Made by a program: the position numbers and the translations under genes. The notes under the pieces were generated by a model. That model did not search any database. It worked only from the letters and a program-made list of their open reading frames with translations, and was not told the origin of the DNA. Source: Stegostoma tigrinum (Eukaryota). Taken from it: a stretch of DNA of 64,000 nucleotides. Shown in pieces: positions 131 through 51,261 of this stretch (position 1 is its first letter; every line of letters starts with the position of its first letter). Where the stretch lies: the NCBI RefSeq assembly GCF_030684315.1, contig NC_081397.1, forward strand, positions 9,300,001 to 9,364,000, in the 5' to 3' direction.

Positions 131-1717
131 ATATGTGATTGTCACTTTCTTCTCTATGGCTGTGAGTGTATTTTCTCATTTCTGCCAGTCAGATCCTGCC
201 CTGTAAAGTTTGAGTATGTTCCACAATATTCATTCTATGGTACAGTTTAAGTTTTATTCCAATATTGGTCAGTCTCTGGTTTGAATGTGTTGAGTTTAAT
301 GTGCACATTTTTGTTGCAAGTTCGCTGTACGAATCATTCTTAATTGAAAGTCAAAAAACTTGGTATCTGCTTGAATATATGTTGTTTTCTGTCTGTTTTC
401 AGGTCAATATTTAATTTCCTTCAGGTAGATTTAAAACTTTATATTCGGCAGTGGGTTCTGCTATCCTGTTTGTGGGACAAACAAAGTCAATGGCAATATA
501 GGTTTCAATCTGACACTTGTCCTGATGTGCAATTCCTCCAGTTTGTACAAAAGGAAAAAAAAACTTCAGTTACCTCTCTCAGTCTAAGACACGGTGAGAT
601 ATTTGGAGGTACATTGAATGTCTTGTTCAATCTACTACTTCATGGGAAGTAATTATGTCAAAAAATTCATACAATTTTTTTGATGATGTCGCAAACAATT
701 GATACTTAATTTATGACCATGGCCATTACCATGTAGTTAAATCCTACAGGGAGTGCATGGAGATTGGAGAACTGAGCTCACTTTTTGTTCTGTTTGTCTC
801 TTTCATAGAAGGCTAGCTCTCTGACCTGAAATCTGAGAGTAGAAATCATTTTTAGTGTTACATGTGCTGAGGCTTGAAGTGTACATGGTCTTCATGGCTA
901 TTAGATGTTGAGGAATGTGTGTTGGAACGGTGCATGTATGTATTTGGAATACATTGTAAATCACTCAGTAGGGGGTGTGTATGTGTGCGTGTGTGCGCAC
1001 TTGTGCAGTTTATGTTATGTGCTCTCAGTAACCATTTTATGTCACACATTTGGAAGTCACATTATTTCATTCTTCTCTCTATGCCTGGGACATCAATTTG
1101 TCAAAACATAGACACAGCCCTGATCAGTTACTGATAATGTGAATGTTTTCTTCCATATCTGTACTCACACTGTGCGAAGTAACTGTGTAACTGCATGAAC
1201 TATTTCTTCACCTTGACAGTAACTTGAAAAACATGCTTACTAAATGCAGATTTACTGCAGTTCCTCGGTGTCCGTCTCAGATGAAGATTCAGTCTGTGAC
1301 TTCACAAAAATGTCATAAATGTCAGGAGGCTATGAATGAAGAAAATTATAGCAACTGTGGAGGTGTGCATTGGAAAGAGAGAAAACAAACCACTTGTATT
1401 TTGTTGCTTGTATTTGACTGTTGGCTTGAATGCATTTTTCTGGAAATTAAGTTCAACGTGTCTCTGAATCAAACTGCTCTTTGCCTGTCGAAATGATGCA
1501 TTCTGACAGCGGTAACATACCTGCTGTTTGTGAGAAGCAGCTGCTCACACTTGGCTTTGCACCAAAGAAATGATACACTGTCTTGGTCCTTCATGTATTT
1601 GCCTGGATGAAAACAGAAGAGAAACATTCTGTAAATCAGCATCAGCCAAGTTTGACAATCTCAAACAGATTAACGTACATTCAGTTGATAATTATTAGGA
1701 TGTTTCTTTTCTTCAAC

Positions 1718-1805
1718 TTCACCTGACAATGTAGCAGAGCTCCAAAAGCTTGAGATTTTAAAATAAACCTATTGGACTATAACACAAATCATGAGACTTC
1801 TGCCT
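1718..1805 (+). repeat. Degenerate Penelope-type terminal repeat with a decayed hammerhead motif
   Basis: cacctgacaatgtagcagagctccaaaagct...aataaacctattggactataac resembles a CUGAnGA...GAAA core followed by AATAAA. The core is heavily mutated. Confidence 0.4.
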
Positions 1806-3199
1806 TTTCTTTGAAGCCATCAATTCAAACACAGGTCTAACTCAGCGAGGTCCAGAAACTGAACAATTGCACAGCTGCATCTAAAGGTGCTACCTGAGGA
1901 TGCTGTAATATTGACACAGTTTGTGTCACCAGATCCCAACACACTAACTGTTGTAAAGAAGAACAACAGACACTATTTCGAATGTTTTTGCTCGAGACAT
2001 ATAATCTGTTGACTCCAATCTGCGTCCTTTACAGGATTCTTATATTTCCACCATCTTGCCTGTGTTTCCACTATTCTTTGCACAATGACGATAAACAGTG
2101 TGAAACAGTAGCCAAACAAGCAGCATTTGGGGCAGGGCCACCAATGGCATGGACTGCTTTTCCCAATAATTCCCAACAACAAACATCAATGGGTCATTCC
2201 CTAATTCCCTTCTCTCCCACTGTGAAGAAAGCAACTGCGGCTGTGGGGAAAAGGGCAGATAATGCTTCAAGCTGAGGCATCGGCCCTTTGTGGAGCGATA
2301 ATAGAGCTCTTTCCCAGGTCATGTTAATAACTCCCTGTCTCCAGCTCTCTCAGAATTGAATGAGCAATGTTCGGGCTGCCCAAGTCTAAGAGACACCGAA
2401 TGGCTGGCAGCTAAGCTGTTCCTCTAGCCCTGCTGCATATGACTGACACGTGGTTAAACAGAACGAATGAAAAAAGCCTGCTCCAGCATTTAACAAAGAC
2501 ACAATGGTACTTTTGAGAAGAGGTTATTCCGAGGCAAAAGGGAGCATTGCACAAACAACAGCTGCAAGATTTGTTGGAGACAGTTTGAAGGTTTGCAACA
2601 AAGATTGAAGGGGACAGTAAGTTCTGCAATAAACAAACAGTTGAACTCATGGGATTATGGCTCATAAAAAAAATCTACAGAATCAAACAAGTTCATTAAA
2701 ATTGATAAGCAATTGATTTCAGTCCCTTTAATGAAAGGATGTTGTCCCATTAGATGAATATAGTTAGTTAGGACAAGGGGTGTCAATCATCCCAAAGACA
2801 GCTGGCCTAGCTCATCATGAAAACAGCAGATAACTCCATCTTGCAGCAATATTCACAATATTAAGAAATTGGTTCCAGTTAAAGATCCTTCAGATAGATT
2901 TCAATGTAATTCTAAATCTATATATATAAAATAAAATACAAATATCACTAAAAGCATCAGGGGAGAAGATTCAAACATGGGTATGAAAGTTAAATTCGTC
3001 TCCAGAAGGTTTCCTATGTCACTAAAGGAATGCCTGGTGCATCCTGTAAGAAGCAAATGGCTCACAATTCATTAGCTATAACAGAGCTAAGAGTATGGGT
3101 ATGCATAAAGCGTTACATATAACTCACTTTATAATACAATTAATATCATGAATCTTATAGCAACTTGTAAGAATAAACTCAGCAATAGTAAGCCCTGCC

Positions 3200-3350
3200 A
3201 ATGCTGCAGTTAGAGATAACACAATGTGGAGCTGGAGGAACACAGCAGGCCAGGCAGCATCAGAGGTGCAGGAAAGTTTAAGTTGTGGGTCAGGATTCTT
3301 CTTCAGAAGCATCAACTTTCTTGCTACTCTGATGCGGCCTGGCCTCCTAG
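3200..3350. repeat. Degenerate palindromic Penelope-derived mini-element
   Basis: An arm gagctggaggaacacagcaggccaggcagcatcagagg is followed by a partial inverted arm. Same family as 15678-15892. Confidence 0.65.
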
Positions 3351-4529
3351 TAGGAGTCAACTGTCTGTTTTATTATAATTCAGACAGTGGGAAAATAAGA
3401 GGAGTAACAGAATTTAATAGAGACACAAAATTAATACAATTGACAGCAGAATTCAAGCTAGCCTGATAGGTAAGCGATTCTGGGGCATGACTGAAGGTGT
3501 ACGGCCAGTAACTTTTTAAAGCGAATTGATAGATGTATGGAAAGATCCCATGGCCTGGTGATTACACTGTCTGATAATGTTTAACAGACATTGTGGTGAA
3601 CCTTGGCCTGGCTAATAGAGGGTCCAGCTTCAGTTAGGAGTTTCAAAGGATTGGTTGTATAGGATAAGGGGAAAGGCACAGTGATCCAGTTGCATTGGAT
3701 CACTGTAACAAAACGTATAATAGTGTATTCCACTGTGAGAATCAGAGTGTCATCAATCTCTCTTTCCAATCTGAGATAAAGATTAATGATGTAACTGCAT
3801 CTTCAAGAGGGGTGGCTGTGGCCCTCTCCCCGCATGATCCGGTGAATGGTTGACGAAATACTGCGATGGGCCTGAATTCTGCCTGCCCCGAGTCTTTGTC
3901 CTAGGTCTGGAGTTTCAGTCCTGCAGGGAATCAAAGAAGTGGATTGAAAATTTGGCCCATTCAATTTGCTCCACTGTACAAGGACAATATCTGATCCAAG
4001 TGAGCTGTTAACTATCGTATTCATTCACCTTGACCGTTATCCCATAAATATTAATTCAATGTTGAAAGAACATACAGAGAAATGAAAGAAATGGGACATT
4101 CTCACTGAAGCAACACGTAAGTATTGGATGGCACCCTGTGTCACAGTGGTATCTAGATGGAAGTGGTCGTGGGCTTGGAAGGCACTGTCTATGGAGCATT
4201 GGTGAATTCCAGCTGTGCATCTTCTGGAAGGTACACATTGCTGCTTGAGCATTGGTATTTGAGGGAATGGACGTTTGCGGATGTGGAGCCAATCAAGTGT
4301 TTCTCTCCTGGATGATATCTTGCTTCTGGTGTGTTTGTGGAGCTGCACTCATCCGTGTAAGTGGGGCTAAACCATCACATTCCTGACTTGATCACATTAG
4401 ATGTTGGACAGGATTTGTGGAAGCAGGAGACCAGACACTCACTGCAGGATACCCAGACTCTGAACTGTCCTTGCAGTATCTGTATTTATGTACAGAATCA
4501 GCTCGAGCATCACAGCGTCCATGAGTGAA

Positions 4530-5240
4530 ACAGAATGGAAACAGACCCTTTCATCCAACTGGTCTGCAATAGATTAACATCCCAATCTGACCTCGTCCCA
4601 TTTGCCTGCATTTTGCACATATCCCTCTCATGTCGACCTGTTCATCTACCCATCCAATGGTGTTTAAAACTTATCATTGTACCCTCCACTAGGCGTACTC
4701 TGTCAGCTTGTTCCAGACATGCCCCACACTCTGCACTAAAGAAATCTCCCTCAGGTCTCTTTTAACATTGACCCTCTCACTGTAAACCTATGCCCTTAAG
4801 GTTTGGGCTCCTCCACCCGAGAAAAAGAGACCATGGCTATTCACCCTATCCATGCTCCTCATGACTTTATAAACCTCTACAAGGTCACTCCTCAGTCTCT
4901 GATGCTGCAGGGTAGAAAGCCCGAACCTGTTCACCCTCTCCAAACAGTTCACACCATCTAGTCCAGCTAACATCTCTAAATATTTACTGCGCCCTCTCCA
5001 GTTCAACAACTTCCTTCCGACAGCAGGTTGGCCAGAACTTTAAGCAGTAAAAAAGCACATTTCCTGTACAGCCACAACATGACATCTCAACTCCTATTCT
5101 CAATACACTGACCAAAGAAGGAAAACACTTGCTTCACCACCTTATCTACTTGCGACTCCACTTTCAGTGAACTACGCACACAAACACCTTGGTGTCTTTG
5201 TTGGGGAACACTTCCCATGGCCCTCCCATTCACTGTCGAA
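4530..5240 (-). mobile_element. CR1 LINE 3' fragment
   Basis: The minus ORF 4788..5009 (LERVNRFGLSTL..RRLRSDLVEVYKVMR) is the CR1 ORF2 C-terminus. Confidence 0.8.
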
Positions 5241-6094
5241 CCCCTCTCCTGTTTTGAACAATGAGAATGTGTGTGTTATTATCATTCTCTTCTTGTCAGT
5301 TTCTGCAACATGAACAAGAGCAACTATTAACGTATGCCTTTCTGTTTCTGTTATGTCTATTTTTGAGTTGAGTAATTGTTGCAAACATACCAGTTTTTGC
5401 TGTGTGACTGAGAGAGTGAAGTTCTCAATCCAAAATAATCAATTTCTACTCTTGTGCATCAAAATAGTTTTATTCTCTGGCCACCAGTGATATTCTGTGA
5501 CTGTGCTTCAATCTGACAGAATAGTTATGAGGGTGTAGAGAGAGAGCCTTAATCCCATTTCCATTTGCGGTTTATGAGCTTTCTGTCAGTCTGAGGGGGT
5601 AAGGAGGTGGAGAGCAGATCATATTCCCAACAATCTGTGGAAACAGTTGAAGAGTACAAATGTTCTAGAGCAAGTACAATGGGCTGAACGGCCTGCTTCT
5701 GACATGTACTTGATCTGTATTTCTGAGGCATTTTCATGAATCCAAGTGTTGGATAGTGCGTCAGTGTAAAGATATCATGTAGAAATGGACAGACAAGCTT
5801 ATTTTTCTTTTAAAAAAGCTGGCCTTGTAAGTCAGTGTAGGTTGTTTCCAGTTTTACTGAGATACTTAGTTTCACTTTGTACTGGGATATTGAATTTTTT
5901 TTTCATTTATTTATTTGGAGAATTTTATTCTGTATCTGACAGACCATGCTGCATTCTCTACTTGTCAGGCTTTGGCAGAGAAAGTGCATTTGCAATTCAC
6001 ATTATTTAATTTCTGTGTCTTTGTATGGGACATTATTCATCAAAAGATAATTTTAGTCCTAAATAAAAACTCAAAAAACTTCAGGTGCTGCAAG

Positions 6095-20290: not shown

Positions 20291-20589
20291 GATAGTTTTA
20301 TCTGGTCGAATGCATCATGTCAAGGGATACTGAATTGTTTTACGGCTTCCAGGGTTATTATTTCCCGATTTCTAAACTTGTTGCTATTCCTCTAACAGTG
20401 TCAGATCTTTCCAATACAATTACAGGAAACTACCTCATGGATACATTCCGTCCGGGCGGATTATAGCTCAATAACACTAACAATAATGGCAGGGTGAGTA
20501 TTGTGTTACCAGTCTCCCAGTAATACAGAGGACATTAAAATTAACTCGGTTGTGGTGAGGGTCCAGTTTCTTTCACTGATGTTGTGGGT

Positions 20590-20605
20590 GGCTCTGAAAA
20601 GAGCC
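20590..20605 (-). terminator. Histone 3' stem-loop
   Basis: GGCTCTTTTCAGAGCC followed by ACCCA on the minus strand. Confidence 0.95.
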
Positions 20606-20635
20606 TTTGGGTTGTCAGGTTACAGAACGGCCCCT

Positions 20636-20935
<300 letters not shown>

Positions 20936-20991
20936 TCAAGCAAACCAGTAATAGAGACAATGGCTCAGCTTCTTTCAATGAAGTTGTGGGT

Positions 20992-21083
20992 GGCTCTTAG
21001 AAGAGCCTTTGGGTTTTGGATGTGTTTTTCTCAGCAGAATGTGGTGTCTCACTTGGAGCTGGTGTTCTTGCTCACCGCCTTTT
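20992..21083 (-). pseudogene. H2B: Histone H2B 3' remnant (last ~11 codons, 3'UTR and stem-loop)
   Basis: 21049-21083 reads KAVSKNTSSK*, compared with [10 protein letters not shown]. Stem-loop GGCTCTTCTAAGAGCC at 20992-21007. Confidence 0.85.
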
Positions 21084-21149
21084 TACTATCTTTCATCGTG
21101 AAACTTGATTCTGCAGGTTTTCTGCCGGGCCTTGTGTTCACTGCCCTTG

Positions 21150-21671
<522 letters not shown>

Positions 21672-21701
21672 ACAACTCGTCCCTTTTCCAGCGAACCCAA
21701 A

Positions 21702-21717
21702 GGCTCTTTTCAGAGCC
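21702..21717 (+). terminator. Histone 3' stem-loop
   Basis: CCAAA-GGCTCTTTTCAGAGCC-ACCCA followed by a purine-rich downstream element. Confidence 0.97.
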
Positions 21718-23305
21718 ACCCAAACCCTCCGATTGAGAGCGGAGACCCGAGGATGGGAAAAGGCAGCACATAGGGAGTGGACAGTGTACTGCAGCTGGTT
21801 ATTTCATTTCGAGATATTTGATTTTGGATCACTCTTTAAAGACAATACATAAAGTTCACGCTCAGCGTTACAGGAGTGAAAACAGGTAGAGCGGAGCATT
21901 CACTTTGTTGCTGTCTCCTATAACGAATGTTTTACATTTAAAATATCCCTTCAGTGCAGATAGAGGCTTTTCAGCCGTTCGAGAATACACTGATATTGCT
22001 GCTGATTATATCACATTGCGACTAAGATACAGAAGTCGGCTCTGTCATTCGATCATGGCTGATTGGTTTCTCAACCCTGATGTGCCTTCTCCCCTTGACC
22101 TTAGACCCTTTTTCTTACGAACACCTCTCTGTCTCGGTAACAATACCAGTATGTGTAGTTAGTTGTTAACACCATGAATAATAATGTGTTCTTCCATGAG
22201 TTTTGGGACCCAGAGGCGAATGATACATTTCACAGTATTTGTACTTCATTGACCCTTCCAGGAATGATTTGTTGTTCAGTTTTCACTCTCACAGCCGTGC
22301 CGCTGTTTTCGTGCCGTATTCTTTCTATCTGCCTGTTACAGACAGGTCTGGCAGCAATTGCAAATTGTGTGCGGGCTAATTATGGTCTGGGTGTAATTTA
22401 AAAAAAGTACCGATAAAGTGACATTTTGTATTTTTACCGTCGCATACTGTGCTAGCTTTTAAGATGTTTAAATCGGCATGTTGTTTAGATTAACCACGGT
22501 TTCACGTTCGGTTGATCAGTTTCGCTGGACTGCATCAAACCCCGCGCTTTGCTCCTGCCTGTTTCAGGCAATGATCCAAAGTGCTGGCCGCGCAGACTGC
22601 AATCTCTGTTACAAAGAAAATTCTATAACGTATTCGGCACAATACAAGTTGCAGACGAATGGTGTTTTACGTTTTAATATTTATTCACTCTCAGGGTGAA
22701 ATCAGCGGATTATTTCAAATCGGTTAACTGCAAATGAGTTTGTCAATCAGCCTTCAACAATTATTGCTTTTAAATTTGAAAAGCCCGCCAAAACATACAA
22801 AGGATTTAAAAGTTTAGGTCACACAATCTCCCTTTTGGCCCGGTCCCCGCTCGTGTTTGTCGGTTGATCCCCTTGGTCGGTACAGAATCGATTTGCCATT
22901 TTTCTCCTGTGCAGGTACTCAACGGTGTTGTTCCCTGACGGAACAATGGGGACAGCATTTTGATTATTTAATGCCGCAGTCCCTTACAGCTAAAACTCCA
23001 CGTTTACTATTCCAGGGCGACAGCTGTTCTTGTTTTATCTTGACCAGATAAGGCCCTCAGTGACGGTGAGCGGACCCTAAACGTGAACTGTTTTCACTTG
23101 CACAAATTTTGCCAGACTGGTGAAGCTTTTCCAGAGATTGAACCAATATAAAAATCTGAGAAAAAAATATTTTTTAAGAAATCTAAAATAAAAAAGGAAA
23201 GTTTAATTATCGCAATTTCATTTACACAGTCCCCAGACTTCACAGAAAAGGAAAAATAACCAACCAGCAGTGACAGTCTAACTGCTTTTCATTGATGTTG
23301 TGGGT

Positions 23306-23321
23306 GGCTCTTAAAAGAGCC
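23306..23321 (-). terminator. Histone 3' stem-loop
   Basis: GGCTCTTTTAAGAGCC on the minus strand. Confidence 0.96.
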
Positions 23322-23351
23322 TTTGGGTTGTCAGGTTACAGAACGGTCTCT

Positions 23352-23995
<644 letters not shown>

Positions 23996-24790
23996 GGAAG
24001 AAGTTTTACGAAGAAGAATGCGTTCATATTCCAGATAATTTACTTTTAGAATACAACTGTATATTTCATACAATCTCTCTCTGATTCCCAGGCCTAAGTG
24101 AATCGATGTGATTATGATTTTGCTTTTTACCCTGATCCTTAAGAATAAACAGATGGCAGAAAAAGAGCCCGGCGTAAGTTACTCTCTGAACAGATTCATT
24201 TTATTTCACATCAGCACCCGGATACATTGATAAAAGCATCGCACTGCTATTTCTTTCCCGTTGAGCGCATTACCGTTTTAAACAATATTGACAATCGCGC
24301 TCCCTATTGCACGGGATCAACAATATTTCTACTTTTGCGATGCCAGTCCGCCAGCTGTTCTGCTTTCATCTCGGTTCACTTTGAAATTTTCCCACCGACA
24401 GCAGAAAGCCTCATTTATGAGCTTTCTGCAAAACCGCGGGGAGATTTGAAAATAAAACAAAATTCCTCTGCGTGGAAACCGGAGGGAAATGCCGGCGCCA
24501 AATCATCAACCGCTTTCTTTCAAACTCGAAAAGCCCGCCAATATGTACAAAACAGTAAGAAGTCAAACAAAGAAAAATGCAAAAGTATTTGAAGTAATTT
24601 ACTTTTAGATTACACCGACATGCTTCACTCAATCTCAGTCATTCCCTAGCCTCCATACATCTGTATTTATGTTCTTGAAAGGATTGTTTGCTCGAACTTT
24701 ACGAATAAACGGAAGCAAAAAACAAACCTGCCAAAATCCGTTCCCTGCATAGATACTATTTCACATCAGCACCCGGTGATATTGATAAAA

Positions 24791-25018
24791 GATAATAAAA
24801 TGTGAGGCTGGATGAACACAGCAGGCCCAGCAGCATCTCAGGAGCACAAAAGCTGACGTTACGGGCCTAGACCCTTCATCAGAGAGCTCTCTGCTGAAGG
24901 GACTCGGCCCGAAACGTCAGCTTTTGTGCTCCTGAGATGCTGCTGGGCCTGCTGTGTTCATCCAGTTTCACATTTTATTATCTTGGATTCTCCAGCATCT
25001 GCAGTTCCCATTATCACG
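24791..25018. mobile_element. Palindromic Penelope-derived mini-element with a 13-bp TSD
   Basis: gatattgataaaa is present at 24778-24790 and 25019-25031. Central palindrome agagagctctct. Confidence 0.88.
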
Positions 25019-26058
25019 GATATTGATAAAATACTCCTTTTTTCAGGTGAGCGTATTAATGCTTTGGACAATATTTTTAAAATCGCCTTTCCTATTGCAC
25101 TCGACTGGACTTCTACAATAGTTCCACATTGCCGATGCGAGTCCGGGAGCTATTCTAGTTTCGTTAAGAATCACTTTGAAATTCTCCCATCGACAGCAGA
25201 AAGCACCACATACTGCATTTTGAAAAAAACAAAAATCACAAATCCCGCTGAGATTTGGAATTGAATTGCAATTAAATTGCAGGGGGATTTCAGGGTTCAG
25301 AACCCACTGCGATTAGTTTGAAAAATGCTCAAACCCACAAAAGAGGAAAAGGAGTGAATAATTTAATCCTGTATAAGCTCACTCACACTGACATTGCAAA
25401 TGAATACTTTACACAATTTTTCTGTATTGCATTCTCTCTTCTACTCGAATCTGTCCATTTCTGCACTTGAATAGAATTTTCTGAATTTAGCAACAAGCGG
25501 AAATAGCAAAAAAAAAAGCACCGCATTCTGCGCATATTTTTATTTCACTTTTCAAGTGCACACCGAATATTGATTAAACCTCGCACAATGTCCTTTTGGG
25601 TGAACGCGTTCACACTTTAAACAACAGCTTGAAGTTGCCCTCCCCTGTTGTCCTTGACCAGTCGTCAGGCACAATTTCACACTTGCTATCGCAATTCGGC
25701 AGCTGCTCTGGCTTTATCTCGGTTCATTGTAAAATTAACAGAACAGCAAGTAGATTGTAAAATCTATTCATGGGATTCGATGTTAACTTTGTTTCCCGGG
25801 GTCATCAAGTGTGAAAGAGGAACTTGGAAAAAAAAAGGAAGTTGTTGACAAATGATTCATTGGCGATAATTATGCTCTTTGCAGATACAGGGAAACGAGA
25901 CAGGGTACGGCTGCAACCTAAAATAAAGGGCAGATGAGGGACGACACATCGAGTTCTAAAACAATTACGTTATTTTTAAAAAGCCGACTGACATTACTAA
26001 TACATACCGAAAATCATTTGCAAAAAGTTGGTTCAGCTGTTTCAGCGAAGTTGTGGGT

Positions 26059-26074
26059 GGCTCTGAAAAGAGCC
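26059..26074 (-). terminator. Histone 3' stem-loop
   Basis: GGCTCTTTTCAGAGCC on the minus strand. Confidence 0.96.
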
Positions 26075-26114
26075 GTTGGGTTTTGGATGTGTTTTTTCAG
26101 CACAATGTGGTGTC

Positions 26115-43169: not shown

Positions 43170-45182
43170 TCAAACACTTTCACAGAGAATTCTGCAATGC
43201 GGCCACATCCCGCCCTCTTATACCTTCGGGAGGAATGGGGGTGCGGCCATTGCTGATTGGTCACATTTTTCAGTATCTCCTAATGTCGTTTCAATGTCCA
43301 ATCAGATATCTGCTTCACTCACCAATCCGGAGAGGGCCCGGGGAGGAGGCCGGAAAACCCCGGCACCAAATCATCAACCGCTTTCTTTCAAACTCGAAAA
43401 GCCATCCAATAGTTTCAAAACGGGTAGAAGATTTACAAAGAAGAATGCGTTCATATTCCAGATAATTTACTTTTAGAATACACTGTATACTTGACACAAT
43501 CTGATTCCCCGGCCTAGTTGAATCCGTCTATTTTTGATCTTGAAGTTCTTTTTTCCCCGCAAAAACTGAATAATAAGTGGAAGCGGGAAAGAAAAGCCCG
43601 CCGAAAGTTATTCTCTGCACAGATTGAATTTATTACACATCAGCACCCGGTTATATTGATAAAAGTATCACACAACTGTTTCTTTCCCTTTGAGCGCATT
43701 CCTGCTTTAAACAATATTTTACAATCGCTCTCCCGATTGCACAAGATCAACAATATTTCCACTTTTGCGATGCCAGTCCGGCAGCTGTTCTGCTTTCCTC
43801 TCGGTTCACTTGGAAATTTTCCCGCCGACAACAAAGCCTCATTTACAGCTTTCTGCAAAACCGGATAGAACCCGCGGGGAGATTTGAAAATAAAACAAAA
43901 TTCCTCTGCGTGGAAACCGTAGGAAAATACCGGCGCCAAATCATAAACCGTTTTCTGTCCGATTTGAAAAGCCCGCCAACATGGGCAATACGACCAAGAG
44001 TTTTTAACCAGGATTTTTGCGTTCATGCTTACGATTTAATTTCCTTTCAGTTAAAAATGTTCACTTCACAATCTGTCACTTCCTAAGCAACACCGTTTTC
44101 AGAAAACATGGTAAAATAGCCCTCACTTATTGTGCTGGATCAGTCTTTCCGGTCGGTCTCGGCTCATTTTGAAAGTGTCTCACCGACAGCAGAAAGCCCC
44201 ACACACTGCAAACTGATAAAAAAATCGGATAAATTCCCTTACAGATTTGGAAATTGAAAAAGGAATCGCACGGCATTTCTCTTAATGGGACTCAAATAAG
44301 CGATCATAACTTTTCATTACCACGGCTGAATCCAGCCTTCATACCCTATTGGGACAAGTTGGAAAAACCCTTCAACATAGTGGGTAAAGTTTTACAAAGA
44401 GGATTGAACAGTTTAATTTTTCTTAGAATTTAATTCACTTGCACATTACAAGTGCACGCTGATGTATTTATAAAAACTTACACAACGTTTTTCGGGGTGA
44501 ACGGGTTAAAACTTGAAACAATAGTTGGAAGTTGCCCTCCCATATTCTCCTTGAACACAGTTTCACACTTGCGACTGCAATCCTGGCTCTGGCTTTATCT
44601 CAGCTCATTTTGAAAGCCTCTCACCGACAGCTGAAATCCTGAAATGACAAGTATTCTGCAAGATCTGTTCATGGGACTCGAGCAGTTAGTTTTCTTTCTA
44701 GGGGGTGAAATTCCTGATCAAGGGGTAAATAATAACTGGAACACAGGAGTTGTTGCAAAAAAAATGACTGACTGACGATGAATGTGCTTTCTGTACAGGG
44801 AGGGAGGAGAGACTGGATAGGAAGGCAACCGAAAGTAACCGACAGAGGGACAGGGACCGCACGTTAATGTTTAGAACGTTTGTGTAAACAAAGATAAAGA
44901 TTAGAGACATTAATTATAGACACCGAGAATCATTTACAAACGAAAAATGGTTCAAAAAGTGGAAGTTGTTGATAAATGATTCATTGGAGATAATTATGCT
45001 CTTTGCAGATACAGGGAAACGAGACAAGGTATGGCTGCAACCTAAAATAAAGGGCAGATGAGGGACGACACATCGAGTTCTAAAACAATTACATTATTTT
45101 TAAAAAGCCGACTGACATTACTAATACATACCGAAAATCATTTGCACAAAGTTGGTTCAGCTGTTTCAGCGAAGTTGTGGGT

Positions 45183-45198
45183 GGCTCTGAAAAGAGCC
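45183..45198 (-). terminator. Histone 3' stem-loop
   Basis: GGCTCTTTTCAGAGCC on the minus strand. Confidence 0.96.
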
Positions 45199-45238
45199 GT
45201 TGGGTTTTCGATGTGTTTTCTCAGCACAATGTGGGGTC

Positions 45239-45619
45239 TCACTTAGAGCTGGTGTACTTGGTCACCGCCTTTGTACCCTCCGACACGGCGTGCTTGGCCA
45301 GCTCCCCGGGCAGCAGCAGCCGCACCGCGGTCTGGATCTCCCGGGAGCTGATGGTCCTGCGCTTGTTGTAATGGGCCAGGCGGGAAGCCTCCCCCGCGAT
45401 ACGCTCAAAAATATCGTTGACGAACGAGTTCATGATGCTCATCGCCTTGGAGGAGATGCCGGTGTCGGGGTGAACCTGCTTCATCACTTTGTAGATGTAG
45501 ATGCCGTAACTTTCTTTCCTGGACCGTTTCCTTCTCTTGCCGGCTTTCCCCGGTGCCTTCTTGATGATTTTCTTAGCGCCCTTCCTGGAGGCTTGCTGCG
45601 CTTTCTTCTCATCGGCCAT
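45239..45619 (-). CDS. H2B: Histone H2B (126 aa), second isoform
   Basis: [14 protein letters not shown]...[13 protein letters not shown] at 45619. Confidence 0.98.
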
Positions 45620-45669
45620 AGAAACGATCACTTCCAGACACACAATAAAGGAAAATGGGCGCGGAGCTC

Positions 45670-45790
45670 GCTTTTTATAGCCTGACCACGTCAGCAATGC
45701 TAATGAGGGATGGGGGAAACTCTGGTTCATGATTGGGCAGTTTTGAAGAATCTCAGACCATGTGATTAGCTTTTCTGTGATTGGTTACTG
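45670..45790 (-). promoter_or_regulatory. H2B promoter
   Basis: TATAAAAA at 45672-45679, TGACGT at 45688-45693, ATTAGCAT at 45697-45704, plus CCAAT boxes. Confidence 0.8.
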
Positions 45791-46139: not shown

Positions 46140-46595
46140 CACTCGTGGGTCCACCTCATCCATGGCTTCCAGATATCCGAAATTAATCTAGTCCTATTTG
46201 CCAGCATTTGACCCACATCACTCTAAGCCCTTCCTATTCATATACCCGTCCAGATGCCTTTTAAATGTTGTAGCTGTACTCAACTCCTCCACTTCCTCTG
46301 GCAGCTCACTGCAATTCCGCACCACTCTCTGTGTGCAAACATTGCCCACCTTAAGTTCCCTTTAAATCATAGTTTTCTCATCCAAAACCCATGCCCTCCA
46401 GATTTGGACTCCTCTACCGTGGGCAAAAGAACTTGATTATAAAATTAAGAGGGGCATGGACAGCGTGAATAATCTTCTATACGGTCACCACCCAGCCTCT
46501 GACACTCCATGGAAAACAAGCTGCAAAACAAACCACAATAAGCCCTGTCTATTCACTCTCTCCATGAAACTCAAACTCTCCAACTGTGGCAACAT
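46140..46595. mobile_element. CR1 3' fragment(s), mostly minus strand
   Basis: ttaatctagtcctatttgccagcattt...ggcaacatcctgg, similar to 27115-27510. Confidence 0.75.
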
Positions 46596-46652
46596 CCTGG
46601 ATGTGAGTTTGCTCACTGAGCTTGAAGGTTCATTTTTCAGCCATTTCGTCGC
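46595..46652 (-). repeat. Penelope-type terminal-repeat fragment (third family), starting at the 3' half of a hammerhead motif
   Basis: The minus strand reads gcgacgaaatggctgaaaaatgaaccttcaagctcagtgagcaaactcacatccag, homologous to 51170-51227. Confidence 0.65.
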
Positions 46653-49600
46653 TTTTTTTAATTTGAGAAAACATACTTTATTCATACAATGTACAAAAAA
46701 ACTTATACCCTGACCCAGTCATGCAAGCCGCTCCGGGTTAGCCAGGGAGTACATACACCAACGAAAGGCAAAAACAAAACAAAGAAGAAAAAACAACAAA
46801 GAAAATACCCCGGCAGTCGTCTCCCTGCACAGTCCCCGTTGGCCCCCTAACTAGTTGAGGAAGGTACCAGCTGGGCCCAGTTACCAGATAGGGACCTTTT
46901 TTCTATTCTGGGCGAGGGGTTTCATACGGTGGTTTTCCCCACGGCGCCTTCGCGGCAGCTGCCCCAAGCTTTAGAGCGTCCCTCAGCACGTTGTCCTGGA
47001 CCTTGGAGTGAGCCAGTCTGCAACACTCAGTCAGGGTCAGTTATTTCAGCTGGCAGACCAGCAAGTTGCGGGCAGACCAAAGAGCGTCTTTCACCGCATT
47101 GATAGTCCTCCAGTTGCAGATGATGTTGGTCTCAATGTGTGTCCCGGGAAGCAGCCCGTAGAGCACAGAGTCTCATGTCACGGAGCTGCTCGGGACGAAC
47201 CTCGACAAATACCACTGCATCCCCCTCCAGACCTCCTGTGCATAGGCACACTCCAGAAGGAGGTGATCGACAGTCTCAGCACCCCCGCAGCCACCTCGAG
47301 GGCAGCGTGCGGTGGCGCAGAGATTCCGGGCATGCATAAAGGATCTCACTGGCAGAGCCCCTCTCACCGCCAGCCAAGCAATGTCCTTGTGCTTGTTTGA
47401 AAGTTCTGGTGAAGAGGCATTCTGCCGAACCACTTTGGCAGTCTGCATGGGGAACCACACGACGGGATCCACCCTCTCCTTTTCCCAACGAGTCTCGAGG
47501 ATACTATGTGCTGACCACTGCCTGACGGCCTTGTGGTCAAAAGGGTTTCCTTTCAAAAATTTCTCCACCAAGGACAGGTGGTACGGTACGGTACAACAAC
47601 TCGGAGCGTTCTGCGGCAACAAGGCCAGGCCCATCCTTCACAACACCGGGGACAGGTAGAACCTCAGTAAGTAGTGACACTTGGTGTTTGCGTACTGAGG
47701 ATCTACTCACAGCTTGATGCAGCCGCACACAAAGGTAGCCATCAGGGCGAGGGTGGCGTTCGGTACATCATTTCCCGCGTTTTCCAGGTATTGTACATGG
47801 TGTCCCTGCGGACCCAGTCCATCCTTGACCCCCAAATGAACTGGAAGATGGCCCAGGTGATCGCAGCGGCTCAGGTCCAGAGAATAGGCCAGGCCTGCGC
47901 CACATACAACAGTACCGAAAGCTCCTCGCACCTGAAAAACAGGTTCTTACCCGCGATGGAGGGGGACCGGAGCGTCCACCTGTCCAGCTTCTGCTTCAGT
48001 TTGGTGATATGCTCCTCCCAAGTCTTAGTGAACGCTCCAGCTCCATTGAAACAAACACAGAACACCTTCAGGTAGACTGTCCTGACGGTGAAGGGGATGA
48101 AGGGGCAGTCGTCCCAGTTCCCGAAGAACATGGCCACGCTCTTACCCCTATTGACTTTGGCACCCGAGGCCAGTTCAAACTGGCCGCAGATGTCCAACAG
48201 CCTACCCCACCAACCAACGATCGGTGCAGAAGATGGCGACATCGTCCATGTACAGGGAGGTCTTGACCTGAAGGCCTCCGCTGTCTGGGATAGTCACGCC
48301 CTTCAGATTCACGTCCTCCCTGATGTTGCGGCAAAGGGCTTCATACAGCTCATGAACAAGGCAGGAGAGAATGAGCAGCCCTGCCTGACTCCAGATCTGA
48401 CGGGAAAATTGCCCAATTCCCACCTGGTGATCGAGTCTGCGCTAACGATGTTGGTGTAGAGCAGCCGGATCCAATTGCGGATGCCTGCCCCAAACCCCAA
48501 TTTGGAGAGCATGTCCCTCACGTAAGCATGAGAGACCCTGTCAAAGGCCTTCTCCTGGTCCAGGCTGACGAGGCAGGTGTTCACCCTCCTGTCCTCCACG
48601 TAGGCGATCATATCCCTGATCAGCGTGAGGCTTTCAGCGATCTTCCTGCCAGGCACAGCACAGGTTTGGTTCGGGTGAATTATCGACTCCAGGACAGACC
48701 TGACCCGGTTGGCTATGGCCTTGGCCAGGATTTTGTAGTCCATGTTCAATAATGAAATGGGACGCCAATTCTTAATTTCTTCCCTCTCCCCCTTCCTCTT
48801 GTAAATGAGGGTGATGATGCCCTTCGTCATGGACTTGCACATTTCCCCTGCCCAAAGCGCACTATCGTACACCTCCAGCATGTCCTGGCCGACCAGGTCC
48901 CACAGAGCGGAATACAGCACGACCGGTAAGCCGTTGCTCCCAGGAGTCTTATTCCACACCAAGGACTTGAGGACTCCAGTCAGCTCATCCAGGGATATCG
49001 GCCGGTCCAGCCACTCCCTCGTGCTGTTATCTAAGACCTCTGTGATAGATGACAGGAACGACTTGGAGGCCATGCTGTCTGTCGGCTTCACGTCGTACAG
49101 TCCGGCATAGAAGGATCTGCTGATCCTCAAAATGTCGGGCCAAGAACGACGTCACCGAGCCATCATCCTCCTTCAGCCGGCTGAGCACAGAGCTTTCCTG
49201 GTGCACCTTCTGAAAGAAGAAATGCGAGCACGTCTTGTCCTGCTCCACGGAGCAGACCCTGGACTGGAAGATTATCCTGGAGGCCTCCGCGGCAAAGAGC
49301 GAGACTTGCTGGCCCCTCACCTCGGAGGTCCTCCGTGACATTGACTGCCATCGACTGCAGAAGGAGCAAGTTCTGCACCCTTTTCTGGAGTAGCGACAGC
49401 TTTCCCCGCCTCTCTCTCGCCTTCCGAACACCCTTGAGGACAAAGAACCTCTTGATGTTCTCCTTCACTGTCTCCCACCAGTTGCCCGGAGTCTCAAAGA
49501 GGGGTTTCACTGTTCTCCAACTGGTGTACTCCCTCTTAAGCTCCTTGACGTTCTCTGGGGTCAACAGAGTCGTGTTGAGCTTCCACGTTCCCTTGCCGGC

Positions 49601-50866
49601 CTGCTGGTCATCCTGTAAGTGACAGTCGGCCAGCAGGAGGCAGTGGTCAGAGAAGAACACCGGCTCGATGTCGGTGGAGCTGAGCGAGAACACCCGTGAC
49701 ACAAACAGGAAGTCTATCCTTGAGCGGATAGACCCGTCTGGCCGTGACCAGGTGCATCTCCGCTGGGCTCCGTCGGCAGGGATACAGAAGACGTAGAGCA
49801 GATTGGCGTCATTCATCGTGCCCATCAGGAATCTGGACATGACGACCAGTTGACTCCCCCCACCCGCTGTCCACCACGCCGGATCTTCCATCTGCATCAA
49901 TGATGCAGTTGAAGTCTCCGCCTAGGATGACCGGCCTGGACGTAGCCAGCAGGGGTGGAAGCCGCTGCAGGACGGCCAACCGCTCACTCCGTACCGCTGG
50001 GGCGGACACATTGATCAGCCTCCGGAGAGCGTTCCTGTAGGTGACATCAACCACTAGGTGGCGACCCCCCACCACCTCCTGAACTTGAGAGATGGCGAAG
50101 TTGCGCCCCCGCAGCAGAATAGCCAGGCCCGAGGAGCGACAGTCGTTACCACCCGACCAGATCGAAGGCCCACAGGTCCAGGCGCTGGACCTTTTCCCTG
50201 TGCCTGCTGAGGTGCAGTATCCCACAGTCCTGTAGAAACAGGAGGTCCGCCTTGACGGTGGTCAGGTAGGCCAACATGGACACACATCTTGCGGTGGACT
50301 TGACGCTGCGCACATTAATGCTCGCAACTCATACCCCCATTGTGGGCAGTGAACACAGTACCCTCCCCAAGTTCAAGGTCCAGCCCATCCATCTGTCCCT
50401 TCATGCCCATTGCCCGGGATAACTGCTGGACGATCTCCAGGCTCAGGAATCCGTGTGTGCTGCCTTCTGGGTGGCATCCACCCGGCGGGGGTTGGGAGGC
50501 AGGAGAGTCTGGCTCTGGATCAGGCTGGGGACATGCTGTTTTCTCCTTCCCACCTGAAAATTCCAGGGGGCCCTCCAGGGCGCCAGCGGCACGTGGCTGG
50601 GTGTCGGAGAGAGCCTCAGGACGCCTCCCGTCACCTGGAAGCGGGGTGCTGCTTTCCTTCTCCCTTGAGATCTATAGCTTCTGCTTTGGGCGGGCCGCCT
50701 CCGAATCTCCCTCATCAGAGGAGCTCTTATAGCCCCCCTGCAGCTGTCTCTTACCGCCTGATGGTTGCGGTGACTGGGCCTGCAGGCGCACCCTCCTCCT
50801 TGCTTTCCGGACCGTCGCCCATCCCTGGATCACCTGACGCCTCCTCCATCGACTCCGGGTTGTCGG
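46653..50866 (-). mobile_element. Tx1/L1-clade non-LTR retrotransposon, 5'-truncated in ORF1 and inactivated
   Basis: ORF2 remnant 46922-50340: EN (SINVR, LFLQ, GGDFNC, SRIDF, FSDH), RT (KNWRPISLLNMDYKILAK, LDQEKAFDRVSH, GVRQGC, YMDD) and a C-terminal CPR..C...ETVDHLLLEC knuckle. AATAAA at 46677-46682 and A-tail at 46653-46659. Confidence 0.93.
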
Positions 50867-51169
50867 GGTGGGGAAAGACCACTGTATGAAACCCCTCATC
50901 CAGAATGGTAAAAAGGGCCATATCTGGTAACTGGGCCCAGCTGGAGCCTTCCCCAACTGGTCAGGGGGCCAACGGGGACTGTGCGGGTGGACGACTGCCG
51001 GGGTATTTTCTTTGCTTTGTTTTTTTTTCTTCTTTGTTTGTTTTTTTTCCTTTAGTTGGTGTATGTACCCCCTGGGTAACTCAAAGCGGTCTGCATGACT
51101 GGGTAGGTGTGTAAATGTGTTATTTTTTGTACATCTTATGAAAAAAGTATATTTTTTCAAATAAAAAAA
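50867..51169 (+). mobile_element. Second Tx1 3' end (WGKTTV* plus 3'UTR and A-tail), inverted relative to the long copy
   Basis: Diverged reverse complement of 46653-46945. Confidence 0.9.
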
Positions 51170-51261
51170 GGGTGACGAAACGTCTGAAAACTAACCTTCC
51201 AGCTCAGTGAGCCGACTCACATCCAGAACCTCAACCTGAGCTACAAATCTTCTCAAAACTC
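51170..51261 (+). repeat. Penelope-type terminal-repeat fragment (third family), starting at the 3' half of a hammerhead motif
   Basis: gggtgacGAAACGTCtgaaaactaaccttccagctcagtgagccgactcacatccagaacctcaacctgagctacaaatcttctc. Confidence 0.7.

What the first reader, a model, noticed from the sequence alone, without database searches (positions are those of the whole stretch)
46595..51261. Two-tailed Tx1 LINE whose poly(A) ends both land in a hammerhead ribozyme: a possible ribozyme-targeting retrotransposon
Seen: a 4.2-kb minus-strand Tx1 copy (46653-50866) is fused head-to-head to a 0.3-kb plus-strand 3' end of the same family (50867-51169). Each A-tail is followed at once by the same repeat: AAAAAAA-gcgacGAAAtggctgaaaa on the left and AAAAAAA-gggtgacGAAACGTCtgaaaa on the right. 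That sequence looks like the 3' strand of stem II plus the GAAAC-GUC half of a minimal hammerhead; the CUGAnGA half is missing on both sides. The two 3'UTRs and the two flanks are diverged and the junctions differ by about 2 nt. Established: many Tx1-clade LINEs are sequence-specific for multicopy targets, and Penelope-like terminal repeats carry minimal hammerheads. Inference: this Tx1 family targets loop II of a Penelope hammerhead, parasitising and inactivating another retroelement. A palindromic target, like the others in this window, may have been primed from both arms, or two insertions may have been joined by a deletion.
Basis: partly seen in the sequence, partly recalled or inferred. 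Interest (0 to 1): 0.85.

Follow-up and report, generated by a model that had tools for sequence, protein, structure and literature searches.

The report
Tx1 retrotransposon targeting Penelope hammerhead ribozyme
A jumping gene with well over a thousand copies in this vertebrate genome lands almost only at one spot inside the hammerhead-ribozyme motif of another jumping gene, rebuilds a usually damaged copy of that motif at its own front end (likely by copying it in from its RNA), and the two-tailed piece in this window is what remains of two such insertions after their shared middle was deleted.

Summary
Real and genome-wide. A ~5.35-kb Tx1-clade LINE (1,565 exact 3'-end matches) is followed by the same Penelope sequence in 98 of 100 listed copies. 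It inserts at the loop II/stem II boundary of the Penelope minimal hammerhead, at codon 5 of the Penelope ORF. Full-length copies have CUGAUGA and stem II upstream, so this is a target, not a 3' transduction.

The window's two tails are two insertions, one in each arm of an inverted Penelope pair. Paralogues keep the centre; the window allele lost about 6.4 kb.

It rebuilds the hammerhead on the 5' side, usually with a damaged core (12 of 131 intact, against 13 of 31 free copies). A core A6-to-T change 17-18 nt upstream of the nick occurs in 53 of 131 junctions but 1 of 59 free copies and does not follow the Tx1 tree; R2-like homology-primed 5' joining likely explains it.

Tx1 families that target other transposons are known; my literature searches found no Penelope target. 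This scan noted the same targeting in other genomes. New variant of a known kind.

The parts
46597..46652 (-). Left 3' flank: Penelope end from the 3' strand of hammerhead stem II through decayed GAAA-cleavage triplet to the short tail end (CATCCAG)
46653..46659 (-). A7 run ending the left Tx1 copy
46653..50866 (-). Left Tx1 copy, 5' ~1.1 kb lost (positions 1217-5444 of full-length copy L070); mosaic: inner ~1.8 kb 96-99.7% identical to the left arm of intact-centre paralogues, outer part only 87-95%
47176..47637 (-). ORF2 piece, zf-RVT (E 5.7e-11); ORF2 is broken by frameshifts and stops in this copy
48312..49151 (-). ORF2 piece, reverse transcriptase RVT_1 (E 8e-27)
49812..50261 (-). ORF2 piece, APE-type endonuclease (Exo_endo_phos, E 1.1e-4, below the curated cut-off in this broken copy; E 5e-11 in copy L073)
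50864..50873 (.). Deletion junction: about 6.4 kb lost (both Tx1 5' ends, both rebuilt hammerheads, the inverted Penelope centre, most of the right Tx1), at a short G-rich microhomology (GGT, or GGTGGGG with one repeat slip)
50867..51169 (+). Right Tx1 copy, last ~300 nt with A7 run; 98% identical to the 3' end of a full-length copy in paralogues
51170..51261 (+). Right 3' flank: Penelope end, stem II 3' strand, intact GAAAC-GUC (51177-51184), and the long tail; this is the start of the Penelope ORF from codon 5 on

Best explanation
This is a target-specific Tx1-clade LINE that inserts at one site, within 1-2 nt, between loop II and stem II of the minimal hammerhead in the terminal repeat of a Penelope-like element, likely by nicking that DNA sequence with its APE endonuclease and priming reverse transcription there. 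The window holds the two tails of two separate insertions in the two arms of an inverted Penelope pair whose centre was later deleted. The element's own 5' end is a diverged copy of about 55 nt of target downstream of the nick (shown). Its RNA likely also carries about 20 nt of upstream target, so the cDNA would anneal to the target and prime second-strand synthesis, as in R2 elements; this would explain the uniform full-length junctions and the partial copying-in of a ribozyme-core change (A6 to T) 17-18 nt upstream of the nick (inferred). Transcription likely starts from the Penelope terminal-repeat promoter, and a damaged ribozyme would spare that RNA from self-cleavage (inferred, untested).
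For: Target: 98 of 100 listed 3' ends; 58 of 60 fetched; 47 of 60 reach a 5' end in the hammerhead region, tandem copies included; 90 of 90 leader matches are followed by Tx1 body and preceded by Penelope or by another Tx1 tail. Flank is target-derived: off-target copy L186 ends at the A run with a 16-bp duplication; three 3'-flank traits do not follow the Tx1 tree (12 vs 13.3, 18 vs 16.9, 22 vs 18.3 shuffled changes); upstream Penelope lengths vary copy by copy. Penelope identity: RT and weak GIY-YIG hits, ORF start in the motif, two tail lengths 40:39, as described for Penelope in PMC11167929. Window history: seven paralogues with both 5' ends and the inverted centre, matching the window on both sides of the junction. 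Leader: diagnostic letters in 56-64 of 66 junctions and 0-3 of 59 free copies. T at A6: 29 of 66 vs 1 of 59, p 6e-9; 24 of 65 in a second set; partner arm has A in 13 of 14 pairings; 20 changes vs 20.3 shuffled, while leader markers cluster (8 vs 20.8; 7 vs 11.3); linked to G12-to-A, 24 of 46 vs 11 of 54, p 0.0014; two loci share a private change upstream of the nick (L271, L273). Precedent: uniform R2 junctions with a diverged 22-bp downstream duplication and a heteroduplex model (PMC3774820).
Against: No enzyme, ribozyme or RNA test was possible. G12-to-A does not follow the tree within the T group (10 vs 8.8 shuffled) and is present in only about half of T junctions, which a simple polar conversion from uniform masters does not predict. 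The GATT leader variant also did not cluster significantly (6 vs 6.8), so the tree (15 of 61 branches starred) has limited power. 12 of 131 rebuilt motifs have an intact core, so damage is not universal. The window's left tail and flank are not found in the intact-centre paralogues, whose left arm ends earlier in other sequence, so the left tail's history includes a further rearrangement that I could not order. The 16-bp duplication rests on one off-target copy.
Confidence: 0.85

Rival explanations
1. Same targeting, but the T at A6 is made anew at each insertion: the RNA starts at about the U7/G8 position of the core, the RT adds an untemplated A to the cDNA end, and the mismatch is repaired either way. 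No selection against the ribozyme is needed.
For: No lineage signal; only this one upstream position is changed; small slips cluster there (3-nt and 1-nt deletions); copy L128 starts at G8 with foreign DNA upstream.
Against: Almost always T (53 T, 2 C, 1 G of 131) and linked to G12-to-A 23 nt downstream (p 0.0014), which an untemplated letter would not be unless both mark one class of junction.
Confidence: 0.3
2. The endonuclease recognises the stem II hairpin or a cruciform of the inverted Penelope pair, i.e. the ribozyme's shape in DNA, rather than a plain sequence.
For: The nick lies at the loop/stem edge of a 6-bp inverted repeat; both arms are occupied more often than the 11% genome-wide pattern ratio predicts (21 of 36 arms with a visible partner).
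Against: A second abundant hammerhead family in the same genome (five copies in the window) is not the 3' flank of any of the 100 listed ends; the off-target site of L186 shares the GTG at the nick; 24 of 60 loci show no partner arm within 7 kb.
Confidence: 0.15
3. The window's structure is one event: a palindromic target primed from both arms at once, or one insertion duplicated by inversion.
For: Five other two-armed loci without a centre among 60 (L139, L148, L149, L174, L184); for these no intact-centre allele was sought.
Against: Paralogues keep both full 5' ends and the centre, and match the window at 98-100% next to the junction on both sides; the tails are 87% identical.
Confidence: 0.04
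4. The flank is part of the element: a fixed Tx1-Penelope chimaera or 3' transduction.
For: [quoted passage not shown]
Against: L186 lacks the flank; 3'-flank traits ignore the Tx1 tree; tandem copies are followed by the leader form instead; upstream Penelope lengths vary.
Confidence: 0.02

Closest known systems
Target-specific Tx1-clade LINEs that insert into other transposons: Xenopus Tx1L (into Tx1D), crocodilian Tx1-Mar (Mariner-N4_AMi), Tx1-9_AMi (Harbinger), Tx1-8_Crp and Tx1-4_AMi (LTR retrotransposons) (PMC4494074; passages and section 15 read)
   Same: Domain layout; strict preference for a multicopy mobile element; tandem insertions at one site; the 16-bp duplication of L186 equals the length given there for SINEU-3.
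   Different: Target is a Penelope-like element and its hammerhead (the word Penelope does not occur in that paper's main text); specificity is near 98%; the 5' end is a target-derived leader and most copies are full length.
R2 elements with upstream 28S homology, above all earwig R2 (PMC3774820; passages read)
   Same: Uniform 5' junctions, an element-borne diverged duplicate of downstream target sequence, proposed cDNA/target heteroduplex.
   Different: R2 has a restriction-like endonuclease and uses its own active HDV-like ribozyme to make the 5' end; here an APE-type element sits in a foreign hammerhead whose rebuilt copy is mostly damaged.
Minimal hammerheads of metazoan Penelope-like elements (PMC4209133, parts 1-2 of 4 read; PMC11167929, passages and second part of main text read)
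   Same: The target: CUGAUGA, extra nucleotide before G10.1, 6-bp stem II, palindromic 15.2-16.2, ORF start at stem II, optional tail, copies in opposite orientation close together.
   Different: Nothing unusual in the target itself; stem I is only 3 bp; cleavage untested.

Membership tests
Tx1 clade of non-LTR retrotransposons | ORF2 with APE endonuclease, RT and C-terminal zinc motif; ORF1 with RNA-binding domains and zinc knuckles | tested here: met
   Exo_endo_phos, RVT_1, zf-RVT in L073; RBD_ZCCHC3 1st/2nd and zf-CCHC in L069
Tx1 clade of non-LTR retrotransposons | RT groups with Tx1 rather than L1 in a phylogeny | tested here: inconclusive
   No clade tree built. Similarity only: 41% to a zebrafish protein named 'transposon TX1 uncharacterized 149 kDa protein' and 40-50% to fish and amphibian relatives, 645 bits to Takifugu BAD04856.1 (its being a Tx1-clade entry is recalled), against 248 bits to human L1 ORF2p (different program)
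Tx1 clade of non-LTR retrotransposons | Target specificity (Kojima's criterion: one repeat in more than 20% of flanks) | tested here: met
   98 of 100; 58 of 60; criterion from PMC4494074
Tx1 clade of non-LTR retrotransposons | 3' A-rich end and staggered-cut target duplication | tested here: inconclusive
   A run of 5-9; 16-bp duplication in one off-target copy; on target the duplication is masked by the element-borne leader
Tx1 clade of non-LTR retrotransposons | Endonuclease cuts the target in vitro | not testable with these tools
   bench test
Penelope-like element (target) | Single ORF with RT followed by GIY-YIG endonuclease | tested here: met
   RVT_1 E 5e-14 and 1e-12; GIY-YIG E 0.002-0.008, below the curated cut-off; pieces from different truncated copies; no unbroken full-length copy seen
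Penelope-like element (target) | Terminal repeat overlapping the ORF start, optional tail, inverted truncated copies | tested here: met
   Frame from the ATG at stem II runs through the tail, and in L350 continues into further ORF; tails 40 long, 39 short; inverted pairs
Minimal hammerhead ribozyme (min-HHR) | CUGAnGA, bulge before G10.1-C11.1, long stem II, GAAA, palindromic stem III, NUH, short stem I | tested here: met
   All read off natural copy L104; dimer drawable at -18.1 kcal/mol, though not the minimum-energy fold; Rfam finds no hammerhead family here
Minimal hammerhead ribozyme (min-HHR) | Self-cleavage | not testable with these tools
   bench test; PMC4209133 reports low, dimer-dependent activity and PMC11167929 protein-assisted activity for relatives

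The most novel reading that the evidence does not exclude
A LINE that homes into another retroelement's ribozyme: it is co-transcribed from the Penelope promoter, keeps a deliberately disabled copy of the hammerhead as its 5' leader so the RNA is not cut, and uses that leader to pair with the target and overwrite the resident ribozyme core, like co-conversion in intron homing. Only ribozyme-dead copies would act as masters.
Probability: 0.35. Interest if true: 0.72.

Novelty: new variant of a known kind. Interest (0 to 1): 0.5.

Why it matters
It adds a new target class (a Penelope hammerhead) to Tx1 targeting. It also gives more than a thousand natural junctions in one genome in which a marked stretch of target is or is not overwritten. 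That makes an open step of LINE integration (how the 5' end is joined and second-strand synthesis primed) measurable for an APE-type element, where the evidence I found comes from R2. If rebuilt hammerheads are selected to be dead, that would be indirect evidence that Penelope minimal hammerheads cut in vivo, which published work leaves open. A near-98%-specific APE endonuclease with mostly full-length insertion is also of interest for targeted integration.

Tried and rejected
Rfam at gathering threshold on the window found only five histone stem-loops, and at E up to 10 on a free copy only two chance snoRNA hits. Minimum-energy folding did not give the active hammerhead form (script stopped before the junction folds; explicit dimer evaluated). 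Sequencing runs: no RNA holder listed; three contig sets were laid on a 5' junction. X3 covers both Penelope and Tx1 parts, X1 and X2 mainly the Penelope part. Contigs show no starts or strands, so nothing is concluded on expression or on other species. My first motif (GTCACC stem) caught a minor variant; the main family has GTTACC. I first read the 5' side as a 35-bp target duplication with an intact ribozyme and dropped this. The AC variant upstream of the core as a marker of long conversion tracts was dropped, because free inverted arms also disagree at subfamily markers and AC is not linked to T. A search for full-length off-target copies to fix the RNA 5' end found none among 90 leaders; one (L228) joins about 5 nt upstream of the nick. 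No mutational data for A6 were found; that A6 is needed for activity is recalled. Ten long Penelope loci were extended without finding an unbroken full-length element. The search of earlier findings by sequence gave nothing.
Full report
Observation. The window is G000:C56:9300001-9364000 of a 3.2-Gb genome; the repeat content looks shark-like to me (recalled, not tested). The minus-strand element has APE endonuclease, RT and zf-RVT pieces and equals positions 1217-5444 of natural full-length copy L070; the plus-strand piece equals its last ~310 nt; the two tails are 243/280 identical. Less broken copies give the full layout: ORF1 with two ZCCHC3-type RNA-binding domains and zinc knuckles, ORF2 with EN, RT and zf-RVT. 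Relatives are 40-50% identical fish and amphibian proteins, one named Tx1 149-kDa protein, and human L1 ORF2p is more distant. No clade tree was built.

The flank is a target. A 21-nt pattern for the Tx1 3' end has 1,565 matches (control 0). Of the 100 listed, 98 run from the A tail into (G)GTGAC-type sequence (by eye). I fetched 60 of those 100: 57 in list order and 3 picked because they looked odd. 58 of 60 have the target flank, and the A run is 5-9 long. One of the two exceptions (L186) is a 239-nt 3' piece with a 16-bp duplication and no Penelope flank, so the element ends at its A run. 47 of 60 reach a 5' end in the hammerhead region, counting tandem and internally rearranged copies. All 90 leader matches examined (of 1,149) are followed by Tx1 body; 81 have contiguous upstream Penelope, 8 another Tx1 tail, 1 a shortened Penelope junction. 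Three traits of the 3' flank do not follow a tree of 64 Tx1 bodies (2 of 66 copies were left out of the tree for low cover). Upstream Penelope lengths differ from locus to locus.

The target. Free copies read CUGAUGA-U-GUUACC-loop UAGAAU-GGUGAC-GAAA-CG-UC, with a 3-bp stem I. That has every feature listed for minimal hammerheads in PMC4209133 (parts 1-2 of 4 read). There are 9,135 exact matches. Upstream lies an ORF with RT and weak GIY-YIG hits. An ATG at the start of stem II opens a frame through the tail, which continues into further ORF in L350, as in the Anolis element of PMC11167929 (passages and second part of main text). Tails are long or short in 40 and 39 cases. Tx1 3' flanks start at the first or second G of the 3' strand of stem II (38 and 41 of 80), i.e. 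at the 3' edge of loop II and codon 5 of the Penelope ORF. Comparing equal-length patterns, about 11% of motifs are occupied (1,122 vs 9,135); this is a lower bound because leader variants are missed.

The window's two tails. The unit is duplicated on C56: 15 copies of the right tail, six of them with the window's form. Seven paralogues hold two Tx1 copies head to head, each with its 5' end in one arm of an inverted Penelope pair. One paralogue matches the window up to 50873 and again from 50864, with about 6.4 kb between and a short G-rich microhomology at the join. So the structure is two insertions and a later deletion. One loose end: only the inner ~1.8 kb of the left arm is 96-99.7% identical to the paralogues' left arm; the outer part is 87-95%, and the paralogues' left arm stops ~700 nt before the tail in other sequence. 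A further exchange happened on one side or the other. Such loci are common: 21 of the 36 sampled copies with a visible partner have an inverted Tx1 next to them (four pairs are counted from both ends, so 17 of 32 loci; three may be neighbours rather than partner arms), and five lack the centre as the window does.

Downstream of the nick the 5' side is not a plain duplication but an element-borne diverged copy of about 55 nt of target: GG for AA in 64 of 66 junctions and 0 of 59 free copies, and likewise at three further positions (56-64 of 66; six rows seen twice in overlapping loci were dropped). A whole hammerhead-like motif is therefore rebuilt, but its core is intact in 4 of 65 and 12 of 131 overall, against 13 of 31 free copies not selected by pattern. 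The Penelope frame stops after 17 codons in the five leaders translated. Upstream of the nick one position differs: A6 of CUGAUGA, also the A of an upstream ATG, is T in 29 of 66 junctions and 1 of 59 free copies (p 6e-9). It is T in 24 of 65 in a second set (16 repeats and 8 tandem copies set aside, one lacking the position), and in 50 of 100 vs 0 of 100 listed pattern matches. Where the junction has T, the partner arm has A in 13 of 14 pairings; the exception pairs with an older repeat. T does not follow the tree (20 changes vs 20.3 shuffled) while three leader markers do. It is linked to G12-to-A (24 of 46 vs 11 of 54); G12 is the general base (PMC6155905, passages), and that A6 is needed is recalled. 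L271 and L273 share a private change in stem II and loop, upstream of the nick.

Mechanism. Shown: the site, the element-borne downstream copy, the per-insertion T, the deletion. Inferred from LINE biology: nicking by the APE domain and target-primed reverse transcription, with a stagger of perhaps 16 nt (one copy). Inferred by analogy with R2 (PMC3774820, passages, where earwig R2 carries a diverged 22-bp downstream duplication and upstream homology gives uniform junctions): the RNA carries upstream target, the cDNA anneals to the target, and element letters are copied in less often the further upstream they lie (97% at +16, 77% at +11, about 40% at -17). Against this: G12-to-A is in only half of the T junctions and shows no lineage signal among them, another leader variant did not cluster significantly, and the tree is weak. 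The rival is an RNA starting at U7/G8 with an untemplated A on the cDNA; it is favoured by L128, which starts at G8, and by slips at that spot. Use of the Penelope promoter and selection against self-cleavage are untested. Recognition is more likely of sequence than of ribozyme shape: a second hammerhead family, five copies of which lie in the window, never appears as a 3' flank among the 100 listed.

Comparison and novelty. Tx1 families targeting piggyBac, Mariner, Harbinger and LTR elements are described in PMC4494074 (passages and section 15), whose main text has no mention of Penelope or sharks; its supplementary target figures were not read and may bear on this. Searches (listings and abstract starts only) showed no paper on a Penelope-targeting Tx1. 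Repbase, Dfam and subscription papers are not covered, so 'not in print' is limited to those searches. Earlier notes of this scan report the same targeting in other genomes; they are unchecked leads and did not enter the evidence. Verdict: a new variant of a known kind, real and well supported. The parts not covered by the notes as shown to me are the target-derived, mostly ribozyme-damaged leader with its per-insertion core change, and the excess of double occupancy. Interest 0.5.

Noticed in passing
window 45158-45784, 20565-26079: Histone cluster: an H2B-like ORF (name from recalled sequence likeness) at 45239-45784 on the minus strand and five histone 3' stem-loops; the Tx1-bearing unit is duplicated at least 15 times on C56.
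   Followed up: partly
window 14134, 15766, 31127, 37143 (+), 57016 (-): Five copies of a second hammerhead-like repeat family (CTGATGAAGGG...GAAACGT type), not targeted by this Tx1.
   Followed up: partly
L128-L187 (C1 sample): Both arms of inverted Penelope pairs are occupied far more often than the 11% pattern ratio predicts (21 of 36 arms, 17 of 32 loci); the two arms are mostly 85-96% identical, so mostly separate insertions. Cause unexplained.
   Followed up: partly
L284-L313: 10 of 30 loci chosen for a long Penelope body carry a Tx1 leader, more than the genome-wide ratio; long copies may be preferred targets.
   Followed up: no
L187:about 5310-5385 in element orientation: An off-target 5'-truncated Tx1 copy whose 5' flank ends in the other hammerhead family, right at its GAAAC; the 3' flank is unrelated.
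   Followed up: no
L075, L085, L130, L134, L137, L176: Head-to-tail Tx1 tandems: a new copy inserts at the rebuilt 5' junction of an older one.
   Followed up: yes
L171/L172, L152/L153: Two sister pairs on the Tx1 tree: the two arms of one locus, and two copies 27 kb apart, suggesting local conversion or duplication.
   Followed up: no
5' junctions, stem I: The leader's GG change would lengthen hammerhead stem I from 3 to 4 pairs (one G-U) even as the core decays.
   Followed up: no
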